Below the pieces are notes generated by a model. That model did not search any database, was not told where the DNA came from, and was given only the letters and a program-made list of their open reading frames with translations. Below are positions 8,482 through 21,758 of a DNA stretch of 33,077 nucleotides, piece after piece. This DNA is from Candidatus Rokuibacteriota bacterium (GTDB taxonomy: Bacteria; Methylomirabilota; Methylomirabilia; Rokubacteriales; CSP1-6): the NCBI GenBank assembly GCA_046712525.1, contig JBKKCN010000450.1, positions 1-33,077 of the forward strand, given 5' to 3'. A program made the translations under genes and the position numbers. Positions within the stretch are counted from its first letter, which is position 1. Each line of letters starts with the position of its first letter.

Positions 8482-8889
8482 TCAGCGCTCATAGCAGATG
8501 CCCTCCACGGTGATCCAGCCGCACACCGGTAACCCGTTCCGCGCTGGGTCTTCCGGCACATCCACCACGCCGCGGGCCAGTTCGCGGCCCGTGCCCGCGA
8601 CATGAACGACGAACGGATGGCGGCCGGGGCGATGAAAGACCGCCGAGATCCGTCCCGGGACGTTGACGACGTGGTGCTCTCCTTGGTCGCCGAGGAACTC
8701 GACGTGGATATCGCGGTTCGTCCGGTTCACGAAACGAATCGGCGCGTTGAGACTGACGTGAGCCACCGGCGGTCGCACACCGGTCGCCTCGACAACGATC
8801 TCGGCCACGTCGGCGGCGGATGTCGCGGCGGCAATCGCGAGTAACAACACAAGAGCGGCGCCGCACCAATGTATTGCAAGCCGCCTCAT
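8482..8889 (-). CDS. small secreted beta-rich protein with C-terminal C-x8-C (paralog 1 of 10534..10926)
   Basis: 135-aa track ORF with a signal peptide MRRLAIHWCGAALVLLLAIAAATSA. Shared pattern with the paralog: FVNR....H......G....HHV..V.G.I.A.FHR.GRH......L.G..DV.ED....LP.C...TV.G.C. Its ATG overlaps the protease stop (ATGA). Confidence 0.7.
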   Translation of the reverse strand: MRRLAIHWCGAALVLLLAIAAATSAADVAEIVVEATGVRPPVAHVSLNAPIRFVNRTNRDIHVEFLGDQGEHHVVNVPGRISAVFHRPGRHPFVVHVAGTGRELARGVVDVPEDPARNGLPVCGWITVEGICYER

Positions 8890-10025
8890 CGCTCTTCGCC
8901 CAACACAGCCCGCAGCACGAACGAGCGTCCGGAGCGATGAACCGTGACGTCGACGGTGGCGCCGGTCCGATGCCGCGCGAGCCGCTCATGGAGATCGTGG
9001 AGATTGCGGACGCTTTGTCCCTGAATGGCCGTGACGATATCACCCACGTCCATGCCAGCGATTGCGCCGGGCCCGGCCGCTTCGACCTTTGTCACGAGGG
9101 CCCCGCGCTCGACGGACAGGTTGTTGGCGTAGGCGATCTGGGGCGTGACGCTCACCGCCGACACGGCGAGCGACGGCCGAACGACCCGGCCGTTCGCGAT
9201 GAGCGCAGCAAGCACGGGCTTGACCGTGTCGGCCGCGATCGCGAAGCCGATGCCATGCGCCGACGCAATGATCGCTGTGTTGATGCCAATCACCTCGCCG
9301 GCGCGGTTCAGAAGCGGACCGCCGGAGTTCCCCGGATTGATGGCCGCGTCGGTCTGGATGAGATTGTGGAGAATCGGCAGCCCCGGCTCTTCCATCGAGC
9401 GCCCGAGCGCACTCACGACGCCGGCCGTCACGCTCGGCCCGCCCTCGATCCAGAGCGGACTGCCGATGGCGACGACCGTTTCCCCGACCCGAAGACGTCC
9501 TGAGGCCCCCAGACGCAGCACCGGCAGATCCGCTCCATCCACTTTCAACACGGCGAGATCCGTGAACGGATCCGCACCGACGAGGACGGCCTTGAACACT
9601 CGTTCGTCGGCGAGGGTGACCTTGATGTGCTCGGCGCCCTCCACGACGTGCCAGTTGGTCAGCACGAATCCGCGGCGATCGACGATGAACCCGGACCCGA
9701 GACCACGGGTGGGCACCGGCTGATTGAACTGATCGTGCTCGATCTGGCGGGTGGTGACGCTCACCGTCGCGGCAACGGTCCGCTGCACCATGGCCGGCAC
9801 GTCGTTGCCTGTGACGTGCGAGCGCGCCTGCACTGTCGCCACGCCGCCCATCAGCAGCACGCAGGCCAGAGGGCCGGCGAGTCGCACGCGTGTCACGAGC
9901 GGTGCTCGCCGCAAGCATTGTCGTCCAGTTCGTCGCAAGCCATTCCCACATGTCCTCCATCGCCGCGCGTTCATCGCGCGAGGCGTTGCTGCATCAGAGT
10001 CGTCGTCTCGCCTCGCGCGGTTCAC
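8886..10025 (-). CDS. trypsin-like serine protease, S1C (HtrA/DegP-like) with C-terminal PDZ (copy 1)
   Basis: 379-aa track ORF. Catalytic triad contexts are TNWHVVEG, DLAVLKV and GNSGGPL; the PDZ-like segment is GALVTKVEAAGPGAIAGMDVGDIVTAIQG. The ATG at 10025 overlaps the sigma-factor stop (ATGA). An alternative GTG start at 9896 (VTRVRLAGPLACVLLMGGVATVQA) would give a cleaner signal peptide. Confidence 0.85.
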   Translation of the reverse strand: MNRARRDDDSDAATPRAMNARRWRTCGNGLRRTGRQCLRRAPLVTRVRLAGPLACVLLMGGVATVQARSHVTGNDVPAMVQRTVAATVSVTTRQIEHDQFNQPVPTRGLGSGFIVDRRGFVLTNWHVVEGAEHIKVTLADERVFKAVLVGADPFTDLAVLKVDGADLPVLRLGASGRLRVGETVVAIGSPLWIEGGPSVTAGVVSALGRSMEEPGLPILHNLIQTDAAINPGNSGGPLLNRAGEVIGINTAIIASAHGIGFAIAADTVKPVLAALIANGRVVRPSLAVSAVSVTPQIAYANNLSVERGALVTKVEAAGPGAIAGMDVGDIVTAIQGQSVRNLHDLHERLARHRTGATVDVTVHRSGRSFVLRAVLGEER

Positions 10026-10531
10026 GCTGCACGCCCAGTGCCATAGCCGGCGGGGTACGGAGGACGGGCTAAAAGCGCGATTTGCAGTCTACGGCACCCA
10101 TCGATGCGCTCCGATCTCCAGGTGCTGGGGCGTTGCCGCCCCAGCGGGGGCATCGCTGTCGCACCGGAAAAACTCGTGCTCCCATTCCGCGGCTGTGGCT
10201 TGAGCAATGGAAGGACGTCGTAGAGACAGGCGCACGCGGCGGTGAACAGTTCGTCGTCCGGCGCCTGGTGTGTCGGCTCATCGCGAGTGAATTCCGCGAT
10301 CGTAGTAGCGGCGGTGGTCCTCCGCCGTAGCTGGTCAGTCACCAGATTCCTCAGTACCTGATAGAACCAGGCGACGAGGCTCTCGTCGCTCCTGAGGTCC
10401 TCCATCCGCCGGAGCGCGACGACCAAGCCATGTTGCAAAACGTCCTCCGCGTCGGCGCGGCCGAGCCGGCGCTCCAAGAACACCAGAAACCGTCGACGGC
10501 GCTCGAGCAAGACCTTGAGCCGTTCATCCAT
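10022..10531 (-). CDS. ECF-type sigma-70 family RNA polymerase sigma factor
   Basis: Track ORF 10022..10576, trimmed to MDERLKVLL (ATG 10531, 2 nt after the upstream stop). Region 2 is AEDVLQHGLVVALRR...LVAWFYQVLRNLVTDQLRRR. Region 4 is short and divergent (...LGRQRPSTWRSERIDGCRRLQIALL). Confidence 0.65.
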   Translation of the reverse strand: MDERLKVLLERRRRFLVFLERRLGRADAEDVLQHGLVVALRRMEDLRSDESLVAWFYQVLRNLVTDQLRRRTTAATTIAEFTRDEPTHQAPDDELFTAACACLYDVLPLLKPQPRNGSTSFSGATAMPPLGRQRPSTWRSERIDGCRRLQIALLARPPYPAGYGTGRAA

Positions 10532-10533
10532 GC

Positions 10534-10926
10534 TCACGGCTCGAGGCATGCGCCTATGACGGTGACCGTCGAGCACGTAGGCGGCAACGATCCCGACACC
10601 CTGTCCTCCGTGACGTCAATCACGCCTCGGAGGTGTCCACGGCCTGGATCGTCGAAGTCGACTATGTAGTCATGCCTCCCTAGTCGATGAAAGATCGCCC
10701 AGATTTCGCCCGACACGCGAAAGACGTGGTGTTGCTTGGCATCTCCCACCAGGTCGATGTGCACACTGCGACCCGAACGGTTGACGAAGACCACACGTTG
10801 GTCCGGGAGGACGCGTAGCACGGGCGGATCCACCGTCAGTGCGCTGATCACGACCTCCCTTTCGGCCGCCTCGGCCGCGGCCGAAACGAGGATGACGGAC
10901 AGCAGGATGACCATTGCCTGCGACAT
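10534..10926 (-). CDS. small secreted beta-rich protein with C-terminal C-x8-C (paralog 2)
   Basis: Track ORF 10534..10980, trimmed to MSQAMVILLSVILVSAAAEA (ATG 10926, TGATG overlap with the protease stop). Shares the pattern described for 8482..8889. Confidence 0.7.
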   Translation of the reverse strand: MSQAMVILLSVILVSAAAEAAEREVVISALTVDPPVLRVLPDQRVVFVNRSGRSVHIDLVGDAKQHHVFRVSGEIWAIFHRLGRHDYIVDFDDPGRGHLRGVIDVTEDRVSGSLPPTCSTVTVIGACLEP

Positions 10927-11939
10927 CAGCGAAACTCTGTCAGGGTGACTCGTACGGCAAGAGGCTCTCCGTCTCGCCAAACGGCCAGCGCCACCGTCTG
11001 ACCAACCCTGTGTGTTGAGAGCAGATCGTGGAAGTGGTGGAGATCGGTGACGGGCCGTCCCTCGACGGCGGTGATGACATCGCCGCTCTTGAGGCCGGCG
11101 GACTCCGCAGGCCCATCCGTCTCGGTCCGGATGATCAACGCTCCTCGCTCCATCGGCAGGTCGTTGGCATACGCGACCTGCGGGGTCACGCTTACGGCAT
11201 AGACGCCGATAGATGGCCGGACGACCCGACCGGTTGCGATCAGCGCGCGAAGCACGGGCCGGGCAGTGACCGCCGACACCGCAAAGCCGATGCCGTGGGC
11301 GGACGGGATGAGCGCCGTGTTGACGCCCACCACGCGTCCGTCCAGGTCGAGGAGCGGACCGCCCGAGTTACCCGGGTTGATGGCCGCATCAGTCTGGATG
11401 AGGTTGTGGAGGACGGGCAGGCCTTCCTCCTCCATGGAACGCCCAAGGGCACTCACGATTCCTACCGTGACCGTTGGACCGCCCTCTATCCAGAGTGGGT
11501 TGCCGATCGCGATCACAGTCTCGCCGACCTCGAGCCGGCGCGACTGAGCCAACGCCAGCGTTGGCAAGCGGGCGCCCTGGATCTTGAGCACGGCCAGCTC
11601 CGTGAACCGGTCACTTCCAACGAAGGTCGCCACGAAGCGCCGCCCGTCGGCGAGGGCGACCTTGATCTCGTTGGCGCCCTCGACGACGTGGAGATTCGTG
11701 AGGATGTAGCCGTCCGGGTCGACGATGAATCCAGAACCCAGACCGCGAGTGCGCACGGATTGATTGAACTGGTCTTGCTCGATCCGGCGCGTCGTGATGC
11801 TCACGACCGCGGGCATCGCCTTGCGGACGACGGTCGGGATGACGCGGCGCCCGGTCAAGTCCGAGCGTGCCGCCGCCGGCGGTGGTATCAATGCGACGGC
11901 AACTGCCAGCGCCACAGCCACTTTTCGAAGTGTCGGCAT
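10926..11939 (-). CDS. trypsin-like serine protease, S1C (HtrA/DegP-like) with C-terminal PDZ (copy 2)
   Basis: 337-aa track ORF with a signal peptide MPTLRKVAVALAVAVALIPPPAAA. Triad contexts are TNLHVVEG, ELAVLKI and GNSGGPL. Roughly two-thirds identical by eye to copy 1. Confidence 0.85.
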   Translation of the reverse strand: MPTLRKVAVALAVAVALIPPPAAARSDLTGRRVIPTVVRKAMPAVVSITTRRIEQDQFNQSVRTRGLGSGFIVDPDGYILTNLHVVEGANEIKVALADGRRFVATFVGSDRFTELAVLKIQGARLPTLALAQSRRLEVGETVIAIGNPLWIEGGPTVTVGIVSALGRSMEEEGLPVLHNLIQTDAAINPGNSGGPLLDLDGRVVGVNTALIPSAHGIGFAVSAVTARPVLRALIATGRVVRPSIGVYAVSVTPQVAYANDLPMERGALIIRTETDGPAESAGLKSGDVITAVEGRPVTDLHHFHDLLSTHRVGQTVALAVWRDGEPLAVRVTLTEFR

Positions 11940-11951
11940 GGACCTTTCCCT

Positions 11952-12374
11952 TCACTTGATCCCGTTTGCAGCTTGGACCTCGCGGATGTATCGCGTGATG
12001 GCGGTGACCTCATCTGGTCGCACTTCGGGCTGCGGCGGCATGTCGCCCGCCCGCCAGTGATGAGCCCGGACGCCGCGCTGGACGGCGAGACTGAACGCGA
12101 CGTCGGCGTGATGGGCGGGGCGGTAGATCGGGTGGACAAGCGGCGGCCCGGCGCCGCCGCCTCCTCCGTGCGGGCCGTGGCAGTGTGCGCAACGGCGGTC
12201 ATAGGCCTCGCGACCGGACTGCGCAACCGAAGAGAGGGCGGGAACGGCGACTGGCATGTCGGCAGGCACGCCAGGTCCGCGGCCATCCCACAGCCCCCAG
12301 CCGGCATAGCCCACTATCGTGAAAACGGTAAAGAGGGAGGCTGGAATCATCCATGCCTTCGAACGCCTACTCAC
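11952..12374 (-). CDS. membrane-anchored monoheme c-type cytochrome
   Basis: 140-aa track ORF with an N-terminal TM helix (MIPASLFTVFTIVGYAGWGLW) and one heme motif CAHCH. A distal Met candidate sits in HWRAGDMPP. Confidence 0.75.
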   Translation of the reverse strand: MSRRSKAWMIPASLFTVFTIVGYAGWGLWDGRGPGVPADMPVAVPALSSVAQSGREAYDRRCAHCHGPHGGGGGAGPPLVHPIYRPAHHADVAFSLAVQRGVRAHHWRAGDMPPQPEVRPDEVTAITRYIREVQAANGIK

Positions 12375-14289: not shown

Positions 14290-15951
14290 TCAATGCTTGT
14301 GCTCGTCAGGCGGTTTGGCTGGATCGCCCGGCGGCTGGCTGCGCGGAGACGGCCGGCCGTCCAACACATCCTTTGCCGACGGCGGTCGCGGTCCCATGTT
14401 CATCATGCCGGCGGCCATGCCCTGTCCCATGCCACCTTGGCCGCCCGACCCGTGGGCCATCGGCATTGCGTGATAGCTCACGTAGAGATCCTCAGCGCCG
14501 TGGTTGCGGTGCAGATAGATCGGCAGGATTCGGAGCACTGCCGCGCGCTTTGCTTCCACGGTCGGATAGAGATCGGGCCGGCTCAGGACGTCGTCGATGT
14601 TGTCATGCGCCATGTGGAGGTTGTCGAAGATGGCCGCCGCCTCCGGGAAGCGCTTCGTGAACTCCGGTGCGCCCTCCGGGAGCATCGGCATGAACTGCCA
14701 CTCGATGGGCGGCCGCCGGAGATAACCGTGATAGTGCTCGATGATCTTCGCCATCAGCTCGCGCTGACGTACGGCCGGGCCCATGAGCTGGACGTCGTAC
14801 GTCGCCGCTTGCAGCCAGTGGTAGGCCCAGATCTGCGTGTTGAACGTGCGGAACGTGTTGCGGAACGCCTTGGACTCGGGGAAGCTCCAGAGCTTGCCAT
14901 GATGGTCGAGCCGGTGCGAGGTGATGGCCTCGGGCTTCTCCAGGTAGTTGGCGAGGAGCTTCCGGTACACCGCCTCCTTGTCCGGGACCTTGTCGGCGGC
15001 GAACAGATCGTAGAGGCTGCGGTGGAAGGTGTGGCCCCAGTTGAACGCCCGGTGCGCTTCCCAGACCATGCGCGTGAAGCGGGGCGCCACCTGCTCTTCA
15101 TCCGGAGGCACCGACGGTGAGCTGAAGATGAAGTCGAGGATCTCGAGCCGCGCCGTCTCGACGCGCTGCAGGTCCTGCGTCCTGAGCAGCGTTTCGGCAA
15201 GATGCGCGTGCCCGAAGTCGATGCCGTTGAATTCGCGGTAAAGCTGAGGCAGCTCCCGCGGGATCGCCCAGTTCCAGCGGCCGCGTGGCTGCCAGCGATG
15301 ATCGCGCGTGACCCACTGGCTCGTCCGGACTTCGGGAAGGACGGTCACCTGCTGCGAAGCGCTGCCCGCCGCGTGTTGCTGGGCGACGTCATGGGCGCCC
15401 GTCGCGGGACCGCGCGGCTGCATTTCCGGGTGCTCGGCGAGGACGTGCGCTCCCGTGTGGCCGGACTGGGTGTGCTGGTAGGCAATGACGGCCCAGCGAT
15501 CTTCCACCGGGAGCTGATCCTTGAACGCCGGCATCACCGAGCCGCGCGCCAGGAACGGCTCGACGACCGCACCGCCCTCGCTGACCCGCCAGAACCAGTA
15601 CGCGTCGGTCATGCCCGCCACCATCCGCTTGTCCGTGAAGTCCGGCGGCTTCAGACGCATCCCCGTTGCGGCCGGTACGTGGCCGTCACCGCTGTCGCCG
15701 TGACAGGCGACACATTTCTCCGCGTAGATCTGCTTCCCGCGCGCGGTCATCCGTGTGTCGGTCCAGAGGCCGGGCGGCGGCTTGACGCCGACGTACTGGG
15801 CTGGCACTGGGATCGATCCATGCTCATGGTGGTCGCTGCCTTGTCGGGGGGTCTGGTGTTGAGCGGCAGCGCCGCGCGAGACAGAAGTCACCTCCGATGC
15901 GATTCCGCCGAGGATGAGGATCGCGAGCGCAATCCGAAGACGCGACTTCAT
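14290..15951 (-). CDS. secreted monoheme cytochrome c fused to a ~400-aa His-rich domain of unknown function and a Met/Gly-rich tail
   Basis: 553-aa track ORF with a signal peptide MKSRLRIALAILILGGIASEV and the heme motif CVACHGDSGDGH. Its cytochrome domain is paralogous to domain 1 of 16989..18242 (shared ...DAYWFWRVSEGG...VEDRWAVIAYQHT). It continues with FGHAHLAETLL, FNWGHTFH, WAYHWLQ, FDNLHMAHDNIDD and a tail HAMPMAHGSGGQGGMGQGMAAGMMNMG. Confidence 0.8.
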   Translation of the reverse strand: MKSRLRIALAILILGGIASEVTSVSRGAAAQHQTPRQGSDHHEHGSIPVPAQYVGVKPPPGLWTDTRMTARGKQIYAEKCVACHGDSGDGHVPAATGMRLKPPDFTDKRMVAGMTDAYWFWRVSEGGAVVEPFLARGSVMPAFKDQLPVEDRWAVIAYQHTQSGHTGAHVLAEHPEMQPRGPATGAHDVAQQHAAGSASQQVTVLPEVRTSQWVTRDHRWQPRGRWNWAIPRELPQLYREFNGIDFGHAHLAETLLRTQDLQRVETARLEILDFIFSSPSVPPDEEQVAPRFTRMVWEAHRAFNWGHTFHRSLYDLFAADKVPDKEAVYRKLLANYLEKPEAITSHRLDHHGKLWSFPESKAFRNTFRTFNTQIWAYHWLQAATYDVQLMGPAVRQRELMAKIIEHYHGYLRRPPIEWQFMPMLPEGAPEFTKRFPEAAAIFDNLHMAHDNIDDVLSRPDLYPTVEAKRAAVLRILPIYLHRNHGAEDLYVSYHAMPMAHGSGGQGGMGQGMAAGMMNMGPRPPSAKDVLDGRPSPRSQPPGDPAKPPDEHKH

Positions 15952-15956
15952 ACGGG

Positions 15957-16076
15957 CTACCGCAAAAGCTCCGCGACAACGACGGTGAGGAGAACATGTA
16001 CAGCGTGACGACTCATGGCGTGGTCCTTCCCGCCAGCCTTCAGGCCGCTTTCGTGAACGTCATGCCCGTGCGACAT
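15957..16076 (-). CDS. possible 39-aa His-rich micro-protein with hydrophobic C-terminus
   Basis: Below the track cut-off. Own translation MSHGHDVHESGLKAGGKDHAMSRHAVHVLLTVVVAELLR. AAGAGGA lies 7 nt upstream of the ATG. It fills the gap between two cytochrome genes, and its stop is 5 nt before ATG 15951. Confidence 0.35.
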   Translation of the reverse strand: MSHGHDVHESGLKAGGKDHAMSRHAVHVLLTVVVAELLR

Positions 16077-16088
16077 ATCCAGATCCTC

Positions 16089-16613
16089 TTAGTGGCCTTT
16101 ATGCTGTCCCGCAGCACCACCCGCCGGCGGCTTCAGCACTGTCAAGAACGCGACGAGGTCGATCAGCTCCTGAACGTTCAAGGAGTCATTGAAAGACGGC
16201 ATCTTGGAGGTGCCGTCGGTGGCTTGGTAGCCCTTGCCCTTCTCGATCACGGCATTGGGGTTGATGATCGCCTCTACGAAGTACTGCGCCTCGTGCAACG
16301 GCCCCATCGTCGACAGTTCCGGTCCGACCTTGCCCTTGTCGGACGGCGCCGGGAACTTCTCTCCCTTCACTTCGTGGCAGCTGTAGCACTCCAGCTTTGC
16401 GAAGACCTGCCTGCCCTTGGCGGCGTCACCTTTTGGCCAGGTGAGCTTCCAGCCCTCGGGCGTCCCGTGGTCGCCGTGCGGCTGAGGCCGCGCCGCGGGT
16501 GCTTGAGCGGGACGGCCGGGCTTGGCCGGCTGCTGCCCCGTGGCAGCGGCGACTGACGAGGCAAGCAACACGCCGGCGAGCGCGAGCGCCCGCCGGCGAA
16601 AGCCCGGCGTCAT
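16089..16613 (-). CDS. periplasmic monoheme c-type cytochrome
   Basis: 174-aa track ORF with a signal peptide MTPGFRRRALALAGVLLASSVAAA and the heme motif CYSCHEV. A distal Met candidate sits in GTSKMPSF. Confidence 0.8.
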   Translation of the reverse strand: MTPGFRRRALALAGVLLASSVAAATGQQPAKPGRPAQAPAARPQPHGDHGTPEGWKLTWPKGDAAKGRQVFAKLECYSCHEVKGEKFPAPSDKGKVGPELSTMGPLHEAQYFVEAIINPNAVIEKGKGYQATDGTSKMPSFNDSLNVQELIDLVAFLTVLKPPAGGAAGQHKGH

Positions 16614-16960
16614 CGTTCCATCACGACCTTCACCAGGTCGGCCACTTCCTTGTCGCCCTCGTGCTTAGTGGCGACGCTGACGATCCATCCCGGCTTCAGA
16701 TCGGTCAGCGCCACGGTCTGCTCCACGAAGCCCGTCTTGCCCGGCTCGGTGGACCGAGTGAACCGGACGACCTTGGCGCCCGGCTTGAGGTGGACGACGA
16801 CCTGACGTGTCTTTCCCTTGGCCGTGGCGTCGATCGTCACCGTCTGCGCCGCCGGGTCCACTGCCTTCACCGTCCCTGAGATCGGTGCTTCATCGGCGAC
16901 GGCGATGCCGCTCACGACGGTCGCCGCCAGGATCATGATCATTGTCATCGCACGAATCAC
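16610..16960 (-). CDS. small periplasmic beta-rich protein (116 aa), unknown function
   Basis: Track ORF 16610..17110, trimmed to GTG 16960 (V)IRAMTMIMILAATVVSGIAVA, which is preceded by GGAGGA at 6 nt. Its stop overlaps the next ATG (ATGA). Confidence 0.6.
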   Translation of the reverse strand: MIRAMTMIMILAATVVSGIAVADEAPISGTVKAVDPAAQTVTIDATAKGKTRQVVVHLKPGAKVVRFTRSTEPGKTGFVEQTVALTDLKPGWIVSVATKHEGDKEVADLVKVVMER

Positions 16961-16988: not shown

Positions 16989-18242
16989 CTATCGACCAGT
17001 CTCTGTCGTCCGCGGCCCGTTGCTCGACAGCGACAGCACGTAGAAAACAAGGTCCCATGTCTGGTCCGGCTCAAGCGAGTCGGCATAGGAGGGCATCGGC
17101 GTGCCAGCAAAACCCGTGACTAACGTCCGGTAGACGTCCTCCGGCCGATCGCCATTCTTGAACCGCCGGGGGTTCCTGAGGTCCGGGGCGGCAATCGGCA
17201 GCTCTCGGCTATCCTTCAGGGTCGGCGCTGAAGGCCCATCGCCCTTCCCCGTCGCGCCGTGGCAAGCCAGGCACTCGGCGTCGGCGTAGAGTTGCTTGCC
17301 CCGGGCGATTCGCTCGTCCGTCAGTTGGGGCCGGGGCGGAATCTCGACGACCTTCACCGGGCCCCGCTCCCAGAACTCTTTGTTCAGGCTCTTGACGTAC
17401 TCGAGGAGCTCCAGGCGCTGCTCTTCAGGCATGTGCCGAAAGCTCGGCATGATGCGGTAGCCGCGTAAGCCGATCGTGAGCGGGCCTCCGGTCGCCCGCA
17501 CTCCTTCCGTCAGCGTCCGGAAGAGGTCGGCGGTCGTCGGAAGCTGACCCGAGGGCGTCGACCGGAACTTGAAGTCCTTGGTCGTGAGGTCGCGCGGCTG
17601 TGGAGATCGGCGCGGCGACAGCGTCGCGCCCACGGAGCCATCGCCCTTGCCCGCCGCTCCGTGACAGGCGACGCACGCCATGGCGAAGATGTCGTGCCCC
17701 ACCGCGACGCTTTGCGGATGCTCCCAGGGGACATGCGGGCCGTCGTGCCCGGAGAATGTGTGCTGGTAGGCCATGACGGCCCACCGGTCTTCGACCGACA
17801 GCGAGTTCTTCCAGGGGGGCATCGCCGAACCCTTGGACTTGAAGGGCTCCGTCTGCCCGCCCTCGCTGATGCGCCAGAACCAGTAGTTGTCCCGCATCTC
17901 GGCGACACCGGCCTTGTCGCGGAAGTCCGACGGCTTCAGAGGCAGCGCCACGCCCGCCGGCCCTTTGCCGTCGCCGGTATCACCGTGACAGACGGCGCAA
18001 CTGGTGGTGTAGATCTCCTTACCGCGCGCGATCATCTTTGCGTCGGTCCAGACGCTGGCCGGCACGTGCGCGTCGGCATAGGGCAGCGGCGCCGGGACGT
18101 GCGCATGTCCGCCCTTGTCCTCCTCGTGGGGCTCGCCGTTGCCGGTAGGATCGGCTTCGATGACTGGCGGGTTGCCAACCCAGAACGACACCGTCAGCAT
18201 GACGGCCGTGATACCGAGGATCGACCAGTGCCTGGCTCTCAT
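16989..18242 (-). CDS. triheme c-type cytochrome
   Basis: 417-aa track ORF with an N-terminal signal/anchor (ILGITAVMLTVSFWV) and three heme motifs: CAVCH, CVACH and CLACH. Confidence 0.85.
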   Translation of the reverse strand: MRARHWSILGITAVMLTVSFWVGNPPVIEADPTGNGEPHEEDKGGHAHVPAPLPYADAHVPASVWTDAKMIARGKEIYTTSCAVCHGDTGDGKGPAGVALPLKPSDFRDKAGVAEMRDNYWFWRISEGGQTEPFKSKGSAMPPWKNSLSVEDRWAVMAYQHTFSGHDGPHVPWEHPQSVAVGHDIFAMACVACHGAAGKGDGSVGATLSPRRSPQPRDLTTKDFKFRSTPSGQLPTTADLFRTLTEGVRATGGPLTIGLRGYRIMPSFRHMPEEQRLELLEYVKSLNKEFWERGPVKVVEIPPRPQLTDERIARGKQLYADAECLACHGATGKGDGPSAPTLKDSRELPIAAPDLRNPRRFKNGDRPEDVYRTLVTGFAGTPMPSYADSLEPDQTWDLVFYVLSLSSNGPRTTETGR

Positions 18243-18254
18243 CCCGTTCTCTCC

Positions 18255-19694
18255 TCAGAAGTCCCAGTCAATGCCGACGATGACCTGATTGCGGTAGCTC
18301 CGCAGCGCGTTGTCCTCGTGAAACTTCCTGAGATTCACACTGTCCCGGACGAAGAAGGCGATGTTCTGCCACGGGTAGTACCGAACCTGGGCGGTGAACA
18401 CCGTGCCGTCGAGCTTCTCGTCCTTCAGGCCGCCCGCCCAGAGCTGGTCGAAGCGGCTGGAGACCAGCACCTTCTCGTGCACGAGGTAGTCGGCCTGCAG
18501 CGTCAGGCCCATGGCCGTGCGGTCGAACTCGCCGCGCAGGTCGCCCGGCAACCCGTAGATGCGGTCCCAGATGAGCGCGCCGTACACGTCGAGACCTTTC
18601 CAGCGTGCGTTCGCCGCGATTCCGTAACGTAGGCGGTCGAGGCGTTTGTCCCCGGCCTCCTCATGGTCCTCAGGGTTGGGGCCGCGCACGACGCCGAACC
18701 CCCAGTTGACCAGTGCCGAGACGTTGAACGTCAGCTCCCTGCGGTCGAGGATGTCGTAGCGCAGCATTGCGTACGTATTGAACCCCTCGTTCTCGCGGAG
18801 GAATCCGACCTGGGCAAGGATGACGTCGTTGAACATCGCGTGGAAGTCCGCACCGGGCGTCCCCGTCGTGTTGTACATGACCTGGTCGGTGACGAGCTGC
18901 GGTTCATGCTCTCGCCGATTCTTGAACAAGCCGAAGAACTTGGAGGCGAACGCATAGGGGACGATGGGGAGGCGATGGACCTCGGACTTGTCCTCGCCGG
19001 GCTCCTTCTCGAATTCGAGCTCGGTGTCCAGGATCAGCTGACGATTTGTGGCGTACGAGAAGTTCGTGCTCGGATCGACCTTCCCGGCCATGAGCATGGG
19101 GCCGTGCATGTAGTTTCCGCCGTGCCGGCCGACCATCGTCTGCCCGCCCATCTCCATGGTCGGAGCGCCGACGAGACCGAAGAGCCAGCCCAGATTGGCC
19201 ATGAAGAAGGCCTCTTTGCCGAGACCGAACTTGTGGCCTCGGTTGTAGAACCCGCGGTCGCGATCGAACTCGGTCGCGTTCGGCTCGTACTCGAACTCCA
19301 CGTAGAAGCTGAAGTTGGGCGTGATCGCTCGCGAGACGAAGAACTCGACCTCGTGCGGCGGCTCGAACTTCACCTCGGTCTCCCGCGGAGACTCGCTGTA
19401 TTCGAAGAATCCGCCGACGATACGGAGGGCAAGGCTGTCGATCGCCGTCTTTGCAGGCCCGTCTTCCTTGAGGCTGCCGACGAGGCCGTCCGGCCGGGAG
19501 GAGCCGGGGATCTGAAAGCCCATCATGTGAAACTGTTCGCCGAAGCGGTTCAGGCGAGGCGGCCGGGTGTGGCAAGCGTTGCATTGCATGTCGTATTGCC
19601 GGGCAAACGCAGGAATCGCATGCGAAGGACTGACCTGCACGTACCCGATCAGGACTCCGACAACGGCGATGCCGAAAAGAACGCGTAGGACCAT
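18255..19694 (-). CDS. fused monoheme cytochrome c - outer-membrane beta-barrel (Cyc2-like porin-cytochrome)
   Basis: 479-aa track ORF. A signal peptide MVLRVLFGIAVVGVLIGYVQVSPSHA is followed immediately by IPAFARQYDMQCNACHTRPPRLNRFGEQF (single CxxCH). The rest is ~430 aa of amphipathic beta-strand pattern ending ...VIVGIDWDF (terminal Phe). GAGGGAGAGGG lies upstream of the ATG. Confidence 0.7.
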   Translation of the reverse strand: MVLRVLFGIAVVGVLIGYVQVSPSHAIPAFARQYDMQCNACHTRPPRLNRFGEQFHMMGFQIPGSSRPDGLVGSLKEDGPAKTAIDSLALRIVGGFFEYSESPRETEVKFEPPHEVEFFVSRAITPNFSFYVEFEYEPNATEFDRDRGFYNRGHKFGLGKEAFFMANLGWLFGLVGAPTMEMGGQTMVGRHGGNYMHGPMLMAGKVDPSTNFSYATNRQLILDTELEFEKEPGEDKSEVHRLPIVPYAFASKFFGLFKNRREHEPQLVTDQVMYNTTGTPGADFHAMFNDVILAQVGFLRENEGFNTYAMLRYDILDRRELTFNVSALVNWGFGVVRGPNPEDHEEAGDKRLDRLRYGIAANARWKGLDVYGALIWDRIYGLPGDLRGEFDRTAMGLTLQADYLVHEKVLVSSRFDQLWAGGLKDEKLDGTVFTAQVRYYPWQNIAFFVRDSVNLRKFHEDNALRSYRNQVIVGIDWDF

Positions 19695-19769
19695 GCCCTC
19701 TCCCTCTCGTTGGCGACATAGACCGCTGCCTCGGACCGAAGGAAACGAGACCGGAAGGAGCGGGTCGGC

Positions 19770-20144
19770 TCAGATCAGGAAGGAGGCGTGCAACAAGAAC
19801 AGTGGGGCACCGGTATGGTCCCGGCTCGATCGAGCGGCGGCGGCCAGCGTGGCCATCGGGGTGGAGCACGGCACAAGCGACATGGGCTGCGCCGCGACCG
19901 CAATGGTGGCGGCCGGAGCCGGCACCGTCGGCGCTGTGGGGGCGGTCGTCGCATCGCACGATGCGACGTGCGAGGCTTCAGGACCGCTGCCTGACGGAGC
20001 ATGCGATTCGGTCGACGTGGTAAAGGGACTATGACCCGAGAACGGCAGCGGAACGATATGTCCGAGGAGACCCATGAGCGCGAGCACGAACACCATCGAG
20101 CGCAGCGGACCAAGGGGCATGAAGGATGTCGCTCTCGCGCTCAT
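19770..20144 (-). CDS. small membrane-anchored His/Cys protein (124 aa), paralog A
   Basis: Track ORF trimmed to MSARATS (ATG 20144), the point where similarity to paralog B begins. Shared blocks are LRSM, GHIVPLPFS.H.PF, TESH.PS, ASHVASCDATT, AAQP.SLVPC..PMA and PLFLLHASFLI (C-terminus). Confidence 0.6.
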   Translation of the reverse strand: MSARATSFMPLGPLRSMVFVLALMGLLGHIVPLPFSGHSPFTTSTESHAPSGSGPEASHVASCDATTAPTAPTVPAPAATIAVAAQPMSLVPCSTPMATLAAAARSSRDHTGAPLFLLHASFLI

Positions 20145-20150
20145 GCGGTG

Positions 20151-20180
20151 ACGATACACGCCGTAAATCGCCATTGTCAA
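20151..20180 (-). promoter_or_regulatory. sigma-70-like promoter candidate (TTGACA-18-TATCGT) 6 nt upstream of ATG 20144
   Basis: The minus strand reads TTGACAatggcgatttacggcgtgTATCGTcaccgcATG. There is no SD, and the geometry would give a leaderless mRNA. Confidence 0.3.
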
Positions 20181-20246
20181 TAAGACGTCGGGATTGCTGC
20201 GACCTCGCATACCTCGTAGCGGCCCGCGCACGCCATGAGCACCAAC

Positions 20247-21044
20247 TCACAGGACCCGCGACGTGTACATCCTCCACGCCCGGATGGGACCGGGACGGGT
20301 GGCGTACACGCGCGACGCCCAGAAGCCGCCGCGCGTCCTCCACATGCCGCCGCGGGCGCGCTGGAACAGCATGACGCTCGGCTCGGAGGGATCGTTGGGG
20401 TCCCACATCGTGAACTCGATGCCCTCGGGCGTGTCGCGGTACGCGTAGGCGATCGTAGTGTGGTTCAGCTCCGGCTTCGGCCAGTTCGAGATCAGCAGCT
20501 GCACGAGGCGGCCCTCGCGAATCTCGTGCGCGATCTCGCTCGCGACCTGTTCCTGATGACCGTCGGGCAGCGGCGCCCCTACCCGCCAGTTGGTCCAGTG
20601 GATGAACGACCAGAAGCGCGCGGTCATCCCGCCCAGCCCCACCTTGACGGCCTTCTCCTCGCCTGCCGTGAACTCGCGCAAGGAGCCGTAGCCGGGGATG
20701 ACGACGCGCTGCTCGGCCGGCAGCGCCGGATCGTACGGGCGGCGGGCGGCGACCTCCTCCACCCGCTTGACGTACTCGTCGAAGGTGAGGCGCGGCGCGA
20801 GGGGGTCGAAGCGCGCGAACTGGTGGAACTGCCGCACGGCGCGCGCGAGCACGAAGCAATAGTTGGCGTAGTCGGCATTCGGCGTTCGCACACGGATCTG
20901 ATTCGGGAACGTAAACGTGTCCGTGCTGAACGAGAAGTCGGTGACGGCGGCGGCCGTGTCGAGGACGTCGGGGGACGGGAGCAGGGGAGCGGTGGCGCAC
21001 GCCACGGTCAGCAGCGCGACGCCGACAAGGATCAGACCCTTCAC
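20247..21044 (-). CDS. lipoprotein of unknown function with a Cys...His...Asp arrangement (possible papain/transglutaminase-like hydrolase)
   Basis: 265-aa track ORF with a GTG start and a lipobox MKGLILVGVALLTVAC. Candidate triad contexts are ANYCFVLARAV, ELNHTTIAYAY and TMWDPNDP. Confidence 0.65.
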   Translation of the reverse strand: MKGLILVGVALLTVACATAPLLPSPDVLDTAAAVTDFSFSTDTFTFPNQIRVRTPNADYANYCFVLARAVRQFHQFARFDPLAPRLTFDEYVKRVEEVAARRPYDPALPAEQRVVIPGYGSLREFTAGEEKAVKVGLGGMTARFWSFIHWTNWRVGAPLPDGHQEQVASEIAHEIREGRLVQLLISNWPKPELNHTTIAYAYRDTPEGIEFTMWDPNDPSEPSVMLFQRARGGMWRTRGGFWASRVYATRPGPIRAWRMYTSRVL

Positions 21045-21280
21045 ATCGTTACCCTAAAGGGCGCCTTTGCTATCGTCAAGGCCTGCGCACATGGACGTCG
21101 CGTTTGACAGTTGCCCGCACTGGACGTAGAGTCCGAAAACCTTGAGCCGCTTGCTGTCCATCCTGAGCCACGCGGAAAGGCACTGTCCCTTCTGGATCGG
21201 CGGCGTGCTCGCGGCTCTGGCGATACTCACCCAGAACCTTCCGGTCAACCATCATCACCTCCAGCGAGGACTCCACGCTA

Positions 21281-21758
21281 CCCTCTCCCTCTCGTTGGCG
21301 ACATAGGCTGCGGCCTCGGAGCGAACGGAACGTGACTGAGAAGAGGGGGTCGAATCAGATCAGGAAGGACGCGTGCAGCAAGAACAGCGGGACACCGGTC
21401 TGGTCCCGTATCGATCGAACAGCGAGGGCCAGGGCCGCCATCGGGCGGGCACATGGCACAAGTGATATGGGCTGCGCCGCGAGCGCGGTGGTGACGCCGG
21501 GGAGCGTGAGGCTCGCTGTGCGGGACGTTGTCGCATCACACGATGCGACGTGGGAGGCTGCGGCGCCCCCGTCCGACGGCCCGTGCGATTCGGTCAATGT
21601 GACAAAGGGAGTATGAACGGAGAACGGCAGCGGGACGATATGGCCGAAGAAAACCAGGATGGTGAGCGCCAACAGCATCGAGCGCAGGAGACCTCCACGC
21701 ACGCAGGATGCAGATGTGGCGCTCATGCGGCCGACACTACACGCCGTACATCTGTCAA
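21281..21758. repeat. copy B of the diverged ~480-bp direct repeat (partner 19696..20180)
   Basis: See copy A. The 26-nt left end is identical, while the coding part has diverged (~60% aa identity by eye). Confidence 0.8.
21355..21726 (-). CDS. small membrane-anchored His/Cys protein (123 aa), paralog B
   Basis: Track ORF trimmed to MSATSAS (ATG 21726). Conserved blocks are as in paralog A. It starts 28 nt after the ATPase stop. Confidence 0.6.
   Translation of the reverse strand: MSATSASCVRGGLLRSMLLALTILVFFGHIVPLPFSVHTPFVTLTESHGPSDGGAAASHVASCDATTSRTASLTLPGVTTALAAQPISLVPCARPMAALALAVRSIRDQTGVPLFLLHASFLI

What the first reader, a model, noticed from the sequence alone, without database searches (positions are those of the whole stretch)
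19696..21758. Diverged ~480-bp direct repeat: two paralogous small His/Cys membrane proteins plus their conserved downstream SD region
19696..20180 and 21281..21758 align over their whole length. The coding parts give 124- and 123-aa proteins with one N-terminal TM helix. Their conserved blocks are GHIVPLPFS.H.PF, TESH.PS, ASHVASCDATT, SLVPC..PMA and an identical C-terminus PLFLLHASFLI. That amounts to about five conserved His (four of them in these blocks) and two conserved Cys, which suggests metal binding. The most conserved piece is non-coding: 26 identical nt (ctatgtcgccaacgagagggagaggg on the coding strand). In copy A this piece supplies the SD of the Cyc2-like gene. The original duplicated unit was therefore probably [small protein + cyc2-like gene]. 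I cannot assign the small protein to a known family.
Basis: seen in the sequence. Interest (0 to 1): 0.6.

Follow-up and report, generated by a model that had tools for sequence, protein, structure and literature searches.

The report
Duplicated leader-peptide cassette before cytochrome operon
The repeat is two copies of a ~485-bp control cassette (promoter, a small exported His/Cys peptide gene with an invariant tail, and RNA that can hide the next gene's ribosome-binding site). In soil Rokubacteria-type bacteria this cassette heads Cyc2-type cytochrome operons and probably works like the copper-sensing CruR/CutF leader peptides; one copy here is orphaned.

Summary
19696-20180 and 21281-21758 (minus strand) are a diverged direct repeat, 77-81% identical. 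They encode 124- and 123-aa paralogues and end in 26 identical bases that include a Shine-Dalgarno (SD).

The repeat unit is a complete expression cassette:
- a TTGACA-N18-TATCGT promoter with the ATG 6 nt after the -10 box, a leaderless geometry found in 26 of 27 related loci;
- a small ORF with an N-terminal export helix, His/Cys motifs, an unconserved linker of constrained length, and a C-terminus LFLLHA[SA][FL]LI-stop that is invariant as peptide but varies synonymously;
- a 72-125-nt spacer whose first ~20 nt after the stop are complementary to the SD of the next gene.

The family has at least 226 clusters, mainly Rokubacteria/Methylomirabilota. It always heads Cyc2-like or cytochrome c operons, often beside copper-resistance genes. 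It gives in-register but sub-threshold matches to DUF2946, the CruR/CutF copper-sensing arrest-peptide family. AlphaFold predicts no fold beyond the N-terminal helix.

Best reading (about 0.55): a cis-acting, metal-sensing leader peptide that gates translation of the cytochrome operon. This is a new variant of a known kind.

Copy B is orphaned. It has a 5-nt promoter-spacer deletion and no cytochrome gene after its SD, whereas its orthologue elsewhere precedes cyc2 directly.

The parts
20151..20180 (-). Promoter of copy A: -35 TTGACA (20180-20175), 18-nt spacer, -10 TATCGT (20156-20151). The ATG at 20144 lies 6 nt after the -10 box, which implies a leaderless mRNA.
   Evidence: Promoter scan scores 10/12. 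The same geometry, in frame with the ORF, occurs in 26 of 27 related loci; the background rate of the promoter pattern is 0.1 per kb.
19770..20144 (-). Leader ORF A, 124 aa. Export helix about 13-30, GHIVPLPFSGH, TESH, SHVASCDA (H59, C63), Ala/Pro/Thr linker, invariant tail PLFLLHASFLI-stop.
19751..19767 (-). Anti-SD of copy A (CGACCCGCUCCUUCCGG), at +3 to +19 after the stop codon.
   Evidence: The best duplex with the SD is -20.1 kcal/mol, and P(SD paired with the first 25 nt after the stop) = 0.81. Significant only family-wide.
19696..19721 (-). 26-nt block identical in both copies: the 3' arm of the spacer helix plus the SD (GAGAGGGAGAGGG) of the Cyc2-like gene.
   Evidence: The same 26-mer is identical in L006 and L009, whose leaders are only about 70% identical to A and B.
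18255..19694 (-). Cyc2-like gene, 479 aa: signal peptide, AIPAFARQYDMQCNACH (single CxxCH), then about 430 aa with no Pfam or NCBIfam hit. It is the regulated target of cassette A.
   Evidence: It is the conserved downstream neighbour.
16989..18242 (-). Tri-haem cytochrome c, 417 aa, second gene of the operon.
   Evidence: Pfam Cytochrom_C x3. Syntenic in L001, L003, L020, L024 and L029.
14290..16948 (-). Rest of the operon: a CusF-like small protein (16610-16948), a cytochrome c (16089-16613) and a 553-aa cytochrome c fusion protein (14290-15951).
   Evidence: A 60%-identical homologue of the 553-aa protein is the gene directly behind the leader in L016.
21734..21758 (-). Crippled promoter of copy B: TTGACA (21758-21753), a 13-nt spacer only, TAGTGT (21739-21734). 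It overlaps the stop codon of the P-type ATPase gene.
   Evidence: A 5-nt deletion relative to orthologue L030 and to contigs of run X3. It is the only one of 27 loci with a 13-nt spacer.
21355..21726 (-). Leader ORF B, 123 aa, intact, with all family motifs retained.
   Evidence: Orthologue P0012/L030; dN/dS against it is 0.46.
21281..21352 (-). Spacer of copy B with its anti-SD (21352-21336) and the identical 26-mer/SD (21306-21281). Homology to copy A and to L030 ends at 21281.
21045..21280 (-). 236-nt stretch after the orphan SD of copy B. It holds only a 66-codon GTG ORF (21276-21076) and has 60% GC. It is not a detectable cyc2 relic.
   Evidence: The local DNA alignment score and the protein scores in all three frames are no better than for shuffled sequence.
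20247..21044 (-). 265-aa lipoprotein gene lying between the two cassettes. It has no family assignment.
   Evidence: Not similar to the 281-aa gene upstream of the leader in L001.

Best explanation
Each repeat copy is a self-contained regulatory cassette with three parts:
- a sigma-70-type promoter that starts transcription at or next to the ATG, giving a leaderless mRNA;
- a 'leader' ORF of about 124 codons;
- a 75-nt spacer.

Proposed mechanism. The leader peptide is exported co-translationally through its N-terminal hydrophobic segment. Its His/Cys motifs (GH.., ESH, H-x3-C) then reach the periplasmic side while the last residues are still being made. The invariant 10-13-residue tail (LFLLHASFLI-stop) sits in the ribosomal exit tunnel when the ribosome reaches the stop codon. 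Metal binding to the exposed part, most likely copper judging from gene neighbourhoods, changes how long the ribosome dwells there. A ribosome held on the stop codon covers the pyrimidine-rich anti-SD that begins 1-3 nt after the stop. This frees the SD GAGAGGGAGAGGG and allows translation of the Cyc2-like porin-cytochrome gene and the cytochrome operon behind it. This is the logic shown experimentally for CutF/cutO and, with Rho termination as the output, for CruR/bfrG (DUF2946).

Shown here: the repeat, the conserved cassette anatomy, peptide-level selection on the tail, the constrained spacing, the synteny, the sub-threshold DUF2946 similarity, and the anti-SD/SD complementarity.

Inferred: export, metal binding, which metal, stalling, and the direction of regulation.

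Copy A is the working cassette of the cyc2-like operon. Copy B is an orphan: it has a shortened promoter spacer and its SD is no longer followed by a cytochrome gene. It was probably separated from cyc2 when about 1.6 kb (a spacer, a lipoprotein gene and cassette A) came to lie between them.
For: (1) Cassette boundaries. Homology runs from the -35 box to the SD and no further.

(2) Leaderless promoter. The arrangement TTGAC[AG]-N16-18-TAnnnT-N6-9-ATG/GTG, in frame with the ORF, occurs in 26 of 27 loci. The background rate of the promoter pattern is 0.1 per kb.

(3) Family size. There are 24 close homologues and 226 clusters at E<=1e-3. In every listed hit the match runs to the protein's C-terminus.

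(4) Selection on the tail. The tail is invariant as peptide, but its codons and the stop codon vary synonymously. Examples: Leu CTG/CTC/TTG/CTT, Ala GCN, stop TGA/TAG/TAA.

(5) Selection elsewhere. Leader dN/dS is 0.3-0.55, against 0.08-0.11 for cyc2.

(6) Spacing. The linker is unconserved in sequence, but the distance from the Cys to the C-terminus is held to 53-63 residues, with modes at 55-57 and 61-62. In the main mode that leaves 43-45 residues between the Cys and the PP. CruR has 45 between CXXC and RAPP (PMC9426467).

(7) No fold. AlphaFold with a 141-sequence alignment predicts only helix 13-30, with pTM 0.30.

(8) DUF2946 similarity. 21 of 141 members give sub-threshold DUF2946 hits (best E = 2.9e-4). 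All are in the same register: the HMM end (positions 115-116 of 117) falls 10-13 residues before the C-terminus, on RAPD/SPP.

(9) Position in the operon. The ORF is always the first gene, followed by a Cyc2-like gene or a cytochrome c gene. The upstream genes vary: MerR/HMA/P1B-ATPase, an RND efflux system, DUF8321, or a P-type ATPase.

(10) Anti-SD. In all 25 spacers folded, the SD is paired in the MFE/ensemble with the first ~25 nt after the stop (P 0.45-1.0). The duplex is stronger than with random windows of the same locus (median fraction 0.035). It is also stronger than the mean of composition-preserving shuffles in all 21 loci (Fisher p about 2e-7 for 13 distinct spacers). The arms differ in sequence in L021, L025, L027 and L029.

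(11) Precedent. [quoted passage not shown]
Against: - No window copy reaches any Pfam or NCBIfam threshold.
- The defining DUF2946 motifs are absent from the window copies. There is no CxxC/CxxxC (a single H-x3-C instead), and there is no PP (GAPLF / GVPLF).
- The hydrophobic tail does not resemble any proven arrest peptide.
- The spacer helix has no compensatory covariation in the close family.
- For copy A alone the anti-SD duplex is not better than composition-matched shuffles (p = 0.2), and the folding z-scores are about 0.4-0.5.
- There are no transcript or ribosome data. The one RNA run showed no contigs over the leaders.
- The metal and the direction of control rest only on gene context.
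- The organism is uncultured.
Confidence: 0.55

Rival explanations
1. The small proteins are stable, membrane-anchored or periplasmic metal-binding accessory proteins of the Cyc2-like electron-transfer chain, acting as a metallochaperone or a subunit. The spacer merely provides ordinary translational coupling.
For: - His and Cys are conserved.
- Linkage with Cyc2-like and cytochrome c genes is strict.
- Many metallochaperones are small and partly disordered.
- The operon also encodes a CusF-like protein.
Against: - No fold is predicted despite a 141-sequence alignment.
- The linker sequence evolves freely (dN/dS about 0.7 in the linker), yet its length is fixed.
- The conserved tail must be the extreme C-terminus directly ahead of an anti-SD.
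- In the family the leader precedes different first genes: cyc2-like or a cytochrome c fusion.
- CutF, the closest studied relative, is undetectable in vivo and acts only in cis.
Confidence: 0.2
2. The cassette gives constitutive translational coupling, or Rho-dependent attenuation, without any metal sensing. Any ribosome that finishes the leaderless ORF opens the hairpin. The peptide's conserved features then serve another purpose. For example, its invariant hydrophobic free C-terminus (F-L-I-COOH) could be a ligand for PDZ domains of the HtrA-type proteases encoded in the same islands, acting as an envelope-stress signal.
For: - The anti-SD lies directly after the stop in all loci.
- The first half of the spacer is C-rich and G-poor, like a rut site (sequence).
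- A motif that must be the very last residues is typical of PDZ ligands (general knowledge).
Against: - It does not explain the fixed distance between the Cys motif and the C-terminus.
- It does not explain the in-register DUF2946 similarity.
- HtrA co-occurrence was not tested systematically.
Confidence: 0.15
3. The ORFs are not translated. The repeat is a duplicated non-coding regulatory region or RNA, and the open frames are by-products of high GC content.
For: - GC3 of the frame (0.75) is lower than in neighbouring genes (0.84-0.92).
- dN/dS between the copies is only 0.53.
- Long spurious ORFs abound in this 65-70% GC window.
Against: - The tail peptide is invariant under abundant synonymous codon and stop-codon variation in 25 loci.
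- His and Cys columns are invariant at 30-40% overall identity.
- The only in-ORF indel between the copies is 3 nt.
- In the 150 best of 226 clusters listed, the match runs to the protein's C-terminus.
- There is no Rfam match.
Confidence: 0.03

Closest known systems
CutF of Rhodobacter capsulatus (cutFOG; DUF2946 / 'CutF-like' proteins; PMC9973294, bioRxiv 10.1101/2025.02.05.636593)
   Same: - A small (<150 aa) ORF that is the first gene of the operon.
- An N-terminal Sec-type export signal and a Cys/His metal motif in the exported part.
- A conserved extreme C-terminus.
- A short spacer whose anti-SD (CTTC-type) pairs with the SD of the next gene, which encodes a periplasmic/outer-membrane metal-redox protein.
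- No stable fold.
- The main branch of the present family (SPPLFLLHAALLI) would even pass that paper's rule 'PP within the last 15 residues'.
   Different: - The window copies have no CxxxC and no PP/PPP.
- The conserved tail is a hydrophobic decapeptide, LFLLHASFLI, that ends at the stop.
- The target is a Cyc2-like porin-cytochrome operon, not a multicopper oxidase.
- The mRNA appears leaderless.
- The hosts are Rokubacteria/Methylomirabilota, not Pseudomonadota.
- The Pfam DUF2946 model is not reached.
CruR (Bp2923) of Bordetella pertussis, DUF2946/PF11162 (Roy et al. 2022, PMC9426467)
   Same: - An upstream ORF with an export signal and a metal motif.
- Strictly conserved spacing to a C-terminal motif: 45 residues in CruR, 43-45 to the PP in the main branch here, and 50 to the single Pro in copy A.
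- It heads an operon for an outer-membrane protein.
- The spacer is C-rich.
   Different: - CruR uses CXXC and RAPP three residues from the end.
- Its spacer is 162 nt long and its output is Rho-dependent termination.
- Copper represses its operon.
- None of these points is established here.
Classical arrest or leader peptides that unmask a downstream SD (SecM-secA, TnaC, ErmCL)
   Same: A cis-acting nascent peptide whose last ~10-17 residues are the conserved part. A ribosome pausing at or near the end of the ORF remodels a hairpin that hides the next SD.
   Different: There is no sequence similarity, and stalling has not been demonstrated. The proposed sensing is extracytoplasmic.
CzcI of Cupriavidus metallidurans (a CutF-like protein without a proline motif, cited in PMC9973294)
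   Same: A small exported His/Cys protein encoded first in a metal-resistance operon. It lacks the PP motif, like the window copies.
   Different: It lies upstream of an RND efflux system. No relation was tested here, and its mechanism is unknown.

Membership tests
DUF2946 (PF11162; CruR/CutF) | Match to the Pfam HMM at or above the gathering score (23.7 bits) | tested here: not met
   P0001 and P0002 have no hit at E<=0.01. 21 of 141 family members give sub-threshold hits, best E = 2.9e-4. P0025 scores 17.0 bits. All hits are in the same register.
DUF2946 (PF11162; CruR/CutF) | N-terminal export signal (signal peptide or N-in/C-out anchor) | tested here: met
   Arg-containing N-region followed by the hydrophobic stretch MVFVLALMGLLG. 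AlphaFold predicts helix 13-30. Many relatives carry A-H-A after the hydrophobic core. Cleavage and export themselves were not tested.
DUF2946 (PF11162; CruR/CutF) | CXXC (CruR) or CxxxC (CutF) copper-binding motif | tested here: not met
   The window copies have a single conserved Cys in SHVASCDA (H-x3-C). The family-wide second Cys (GH[IV]C) is Val in both copies.
DUF2946 (PF11162; CruR/CutF) | C-terminal proline arrest motif (RAPP / PPP / PP within the last 15 residues) | tested here: not met
   Copy A has GAPLFLLHASFLI and copy B has GVPLFLLHASFLI, each with a single Pro. The main branch of the family has SPP at -13 to -11, and a sub-branch has R[AS]PD.
DUF2946 (PF11162; CruR/CutF) | Conserved spacing between the metal motif and the C-terminal motif | tested here: met
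   The distance from the Cys to the last residue is 53-63 in 139 of the 140 proteins with the motif, although the linker sequence is unconserved. CruR has 45 residues within one or two.
DUF2946 (PF11162; CruR/CutF) | First gene of a metal-related operon, followed by a spacer with a regulatory RNA element (an SD-shielding stem-loop in CutF) | tested here: met
   It is the first gene in all loci. The anti-SD after the stop pairs with the SD. No compensatory covariation was found in the close family.
DUF2946 (PF11162; CruR/CutF) | Metal-dependent, cis-acting control of the downstream gene through ribosome stalling | not testable with these tools
   This needs reporter fusions, toeprinting or ribosome profiling.
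Cyc2 fused cytochrome-porin (the downstream gene) | Signal peptide, a single N-terminal CxxCH, then a porin-like beta-barrel | tested here: inconclusive
   The motif AIPAFARQYDMQCNACH follows directly after the signal peptide. There is no Pfam or NCBIfam model hit. The barrel was not modelled here. An earlier AI note calls it a real Cyc2-type protein.
Leaderless mRNA genes | Transcription start at or within a few nt of the start codon, with no SD | tested here: inconclusive
   The promoter geometry is conserved in 26 of 27 loci and no purine-rich SD lies upstream. The transcription start site was not mapped.

The most novel reading that the evidence does not exclude
LFLLHA[SA][FL]LI-stop is a new proline-independent arrest peptide that acts at termination. 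It is read out by an anti-SD placed directly behind the stop codon and triggered by periplasmic metal binding to a His-rich/H-x3-C sensor on a leaderless, co-translationally exported nascent chain. If so, the Cyc2-type 'iron oxidase' operons of Rokubacteria/Methylomirabilota are switched on post-transcriptionally by envelope metal (copper) stress. These porin-cytochromes would then be metal-detoxification devices, not energy-conserving iron oxidases.
Probability: 0.3. Interest if true: 0.75.

Novelty: new variant of a known kind. Interest (0 to 1): 0.58.

Why it matters
- Nascent-chain metal sensors (CruR, CutF) are a recently discovered mode of regulation, so far studied only in Proteobacteria and defined by CxxC/CxxxC plus a proline motif. 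This branch would extend the principle to an uncultured soil phylum, to a different tail motif, to leaderless transcripts and to a new class of target, Cyc2-type outer-membrane cytochromes.
- It gives a concrete, testable handle on what these Cyc2-like proteins respond to. That bears on whether metagenomic 'cyc2' hits may be read as iron oxidation.
The non-coding 26-mer is the best conserved piece because it is the SD arm of the switch.
- For annotation, it shows that at least 226 protein clusters currently without any family name form one family with a predictable genomic role.

Tried and rejected
- **Representative genomes.** The first genome-contig scan, with the close-family alignment, found nothing. 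The broad alignment A5 was too variable to seed a scan.
- **RNA structure.** RNAalifold on MAFFT alignments gave either a helix between the last codons and the SD with no covariation or no structure at all. Counting pairs for the copy-A helix on the close family gave 75.5% paired, the same as shuffles. Structural support therefore rests on thermodynamic tests across diverse spacers. Single-sequence folds of both copies are not unusually stable (z = 0.4-0.5).
- **Databases.** Rfam: no match. PDB sequence search with the family profile: only noise. tblastn against plasmids: no match. No paper mentions DUF6153. The CutF paper's supplements do not contain the tail motif.
- **Relic of a second cyc2 in 21045-21280.** Rejected: DNA and three-frame protein alignments score no better than shuffles.
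- **Homology of the 265-aa lipoprotein to the 281-aa gene upstream of the leader in L001.** Rejected.
- **Public reads.** One soil RNA run holds contigs of relatives over the cyc2 5' end and the lipoprotein gene, but none over the leaders. This is uninformative.
- **Terminator-like hairpins inside both ORF 3' ends (19812-19800, 21397-21385).** The number of such hits is not above chance.
- **Simple 'insertion' history.** cyc2 similarity gives a mixed picture. The window's cyc2 is closest to the one linked to a B-type leader (94%), but its dS is three times that of the leader. The history is therefore mosaic and not fully resolved.
Full report
**1. Observation**

The repeat is real. The repeat finder reports 19696-19916 vs 21281-21501 at 81% identity and 19932-20148 vs 21514-21730 at 77%. 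In a MAFFT alignment of the minus strands, similarity begins at a TTGACA box (20180 in copy A, 21758 in copy B). It ends abruptly after GAGAGGGAGAGGG (19696 / 21281). The last 26 nt are identical.

The minus-strand ORFs 20144-19770 (124 aa, P0001) and 21726-21355 (123 aa, P0002) are 63% identical. The only indel within the ORF is 3 nt, whereas the indels just upstream of the ATG are 5 nt and 1 nt. GC3 is highest in this frame (0.75) but lower than in neighbouring genes (0.84-0.92). dN/dS between the copies is 0.53. Only these two copies occur in the window.

**2. The ORFs are translated and belong to a large unnamed family**

A word-indexed search found 24 relatives, all from metagenomes. An exhaustive profile search found 226 clusters (at 50% identity) with E<=1e-3. 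In the 150 best that were listed, the match runs to the last residue of the protein.

Family hallmarks:
- an N-terminal hydrophobic segment;
- GH[IV]C.LP, which is GHIVPLP in the window copies;
- a His/acidic stretch;
- H.ASC[DE]A;
- a linker with no sequence conservation;
- the tail [S/A]-P-P-L-F-L-L-H-A-[S/A]-[L/F]-L-I-stop.

Across 25 loci the tail is invariant as peptide while its codons vary synonymously: Leu CTG/CTC/TTG/CTT, Phe TTC/TTT, Ala GCN, Ser TCC/TCG, Ile ATC/ATT, stop TGA/TAG/TAA. That is peptide-level selection and excludes a non-coding reading.

The distance from the conserved Cys to the last residue is confined to 53-63 residues, with modes at 55-57 and 61-62. The window copies have 61. 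AlphaFold2 with a 141-sequence alignment predicts only helix 13-30 and no other structure (mean pLDDT 66, pTM 0.30). Leader dN/dS is 0.3-0.55 in every pair examined, against 0.08-0.11 for the adjacent cyc2-like gene.

**3. Genomic role**

In 11 of 13 distinct close loci the ORF is followed, after 72-80 nt, by a 478-485-aa protein. That protein begins with a signal peptide plus A[VI]PAFARQYD.QCN.CH (Cyc2-like). Next come a ~410-aa tri-haem cytochrome c and a ~120-aa protein.

More distant members come from MAGs labelled Candidatus Rokuibacteriota, Candidatus Methylomirabilota, one Verrucomicrobiia and one Betaproteobacteria. They precede either the same Cyc2-like gene or a ~500-aa cytochrome c protein directly. 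The protein in L016 is 60% identical to the 553-aa last gene of the window's operon.

The genes upstream of the small ORF differ from locus to locus:
- MerR-HMA-P1B-ATPase;
- OEP/CzcB efflux genes;
- DUF8321;
- Crp;
- here, a P-type ATPase and a lipoprotein.

The conserved unit therefore starts at the small ORF's own promoter. Copper or heavy-metal genes are frequent neighbours. An earlier AI note on this genome reached the same view of the cytochrome module. I treat that note as a lead only.

**4. Promoter and leaderless geometry**

The scan tool finds TTGACA-18-TATCGT at 20180-20151 (10/12). The ATG at 20144 follows 6 nt after the -10 box, and no SD precedes it. In 26 of 27 loci the same arrangement (TTGAC[AG], 16-18 nt, TAnnnT, 6-9 nt, ATG/GTG) is present in frame with the ORF. 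The promoter pattern occurs at 0.1 per kb in the same sequences.

This start also gives the peptide a positively charged N-region, which the internal Met chosen by many gene callers would lack. The transcription start is inferred, not mapped.

**5. The spacer**

In all 25 spacers folded alone, the SD of the downstream gene is base-paired. Its partner is the first ~25 nt after the leader's stop codon (probability 0.45-1.0; copy A 0.81).

The best duplex between the stop-proximal 40 nt and the SD region starts at +0 to +8 after the stop in 17 of 23 loci; in the other six it begins within the last codons. It is stronger than with random windows of the same locus (median fraction 0.035). Against composition-preserving shuffles, all 21 loci are below the shuffled mean. 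Individual p values range from 0.002 to 0.44, and the Fisher combination is about 2e-7 for 13 clearly different spacers. The arms differ in sequence in L021, L025, L027 and L029.

Caveats:
- Copy A by itself is not significant (p = 0.2).
- MAFFT/RNAalifold alignments show no compensatory changes in the close family, because the SD arm is nearly invariant there.
- There is no Rfam family.
- The last sense codons (GCC UCC UUC CUG) form a second possible anti-SD.

It is identical even in L006 and L009, whose leaders are only about 70% identical. Function, not recent duplication, explains its conservation.

**6. Relation to known systems**

Pfam and NCBIfam give nothing above threshold for the window copies. 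However, 21 of 141 family members give sub-threshold hits to DUF2946 (best 2.9e-4) and 5 give hits to DUF6153. The DUF2946 alignments are all in one register. HMM positions ~29-116 of 117 cover the stretch from the end of the hydrophobic segment to a point 10-13 residues before the C-terminus. That point is the RAPD/SPP position, which would correspond to RAPP.

DUF2946 contains two studied proteins.
- CruR of Bordetella pertussis has an export signal, CXXC, 45 residues of conserved spacing and RAPP. Copper relieves arrest and allows Rho termination (PMC9426467).
- CutF of Rhodobacter capsulatus is a nascent, co-translationally exported copper sensor. Its stalling melts a stem-loop, whose anti-SD is CTTC, that shields the cutO SD.

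In the main branch of the present family, 43-45 residues lie between the Cys and the PP, the same ruler as in CruR. In the window's sub-branch, 50 residues lie between C63 and the single Pro.

By the defining motifs the window copies are not DUF2946 members, because they lack CxxC, PP and an HMM match. Their anatomy, however, is that of a CutF-type switch.

**7. Mechanism proposed**

The leaderless leader is translated and exported co-translationally. When the ribosome reaches the stop codon, the 13 conserved C-terminal residues fill the upper exit tunnel. About 55-60 residues of nascent chain span the tunnel plus the translocon, which places the H-x3-C motif and the upstream His residues at the periplasmic face.

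Metal binding there alters the pulling force or folding, and hence the dwell time at the stop. The dwelling ribosome covers the anti-SD at +1 to +20 and exposes the SD of the cytochrome operon.

The steps that are shown and those that are inferred are listed under Best explanation. A Rho-dependent output on the C-rich spacer and simple constitutive coupling cannot be excluded.

**8. The two copies**

Copy A has the canonical promoter and drives the cyc2-like operon.

Copy B has a 13-nt promoter spacer. This reflects a 5-nt deletion relative to its 94%-identical orthologue L030 and relative to contigs of a related population in run X3. It is unique among 27 loci. Its -35 box overlaps the stop codon of the P-type ATPase gene.

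In L030 the order is ATPase 3' end, then B-type leader, then a 75-nt spacer, then an intact cyc2-like gene. In the window, homology ends at the SD. What follows is a 236-nt stretch with only a 66-codon ORF, which shows no detectable similarity to cyc2. After that come a 265-aa lipoprotein gene and cassette A.

The window's cyc2 5' end is closest to the cyc2 linked to the B-type leader (94.0%). Leader A is closest to L033 (93.5%), whose cyc2 is only 89.5% identical to the window's. The simplest history is that about 1.6 kb, including a second cassette of another lineage, came to lie between leader B and cyc2.

Synonymous divergences are discordant: leaders 0.10-0.12 against cyc2 0.32-0.47. The history is therefore mosaic, and I leave it open.

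ORF B is intact and its dN/dS against L030 (0.46) is no higher than in the A lineage. It is either a recent orphan or is still used in some way.

**9. Verdict**

This is a new variant of a known kind, a CruR/CutF-like leader peptide cassette. Its distinctive features are a proline-poor hydrophobic tail, a leaderless promoter, a new target class and a new phylum. Similar CruR/CutF-type leaders have been noted repeatedly elsewhere in this scan, which lowers the surprise of the general principle.

Noticed in passing
window 21734-21758 (minus strand): Copy B's promoter spacer is 13 nt because of a 5-nt deletion (GTGCC) relative to orthologue L030 and to contigs of run X3. It is the only one of 27 related loci with this defect. 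The -35 box overlaps the stop codon of the P-type ATPase gene.
   Followed up: yes
window 19770-20144 / 18255-19694, compared with L030 and L033: Synonymous divergence of the leader ORFs (0.10-0.12) is 3-4 times lower than that of the adjacent cyc2-like genes (0.32-0.47) in the closest comparisons. This suggests either nucleotide-level constraint on the leader mRNA or exchange of cassettes between strains.
   Followed up: partly
L038-L040 (contigs carrying P0008): Several assembled contigs of other samples stop about 64 nt after the leader's stop codon. Such breaks would be expected if those genomes also carry more than one cassette copy, which would act as an assembly repeat.
   Followed up: no
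P0020 (ENA contig, 664 nt): One homologue has the leader's first ~72 residues fused to a Cys/Met-metabolism PLP enzyme fragment (PF01053). It is probably an assembly chimera or a rearrangement at the leader.
   Followed up: no
L016 576-2177; L026 and L028 downstream genes: In some relatives the leader directly precedes the cytochrome c fusion protein, which is 60% identical to window 14290-15951. A 256-aa protein starting IDHKNLD..RP.RVEDAY, possibly an outer-membrane protein, follows. The leader is therefore not tied to Cyc2 as such but to this cytochrome gene set.
   Followed up: partly
L027 6855-8333: A leader relative with a 125-nt spacer lies upstream of a 492-aa protein with a twin-arginine-like signal (RRAFLQGG). 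This protein may be a multicopper oxidase, as in cutFOG. It was not scanned.
   Followed up: no
window 21104-21132 (plus strand): A promoter-like site TTGACA-17-TAGAGT (10/12) sits on the opposite strand inside the 236-nt gap after copy B. Its function is unknown.
   Followed up: no
window 19800-19812 and 21385-21397 (minus strand): A weak terminator-like hairpin (5-bp stem followed by a T-rich run) lies inside the codons for TGAPLFLL in both copies. The number of such hits in the region is not above chance.
   Followed up: partly
window 8500-12000 and L003 5696-6703: HtrA-type proteases with PDZ domains are encoded in the same islands as the cassette. The leader's invariant free C-terminus F-L-I would fit a PDZ ligand.
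   Followed up: no
window 19300-19717 and 20255-21080 in run X17: A soil RNA-seq run holds short contigs of close relatives. They cover the cyc2-like 5' end, including 23 nt of the spacer, and the lipoprotein gene. None cover the leader ORFs. Contig data only, so this is not evidence of absence.
   Followed up: partly
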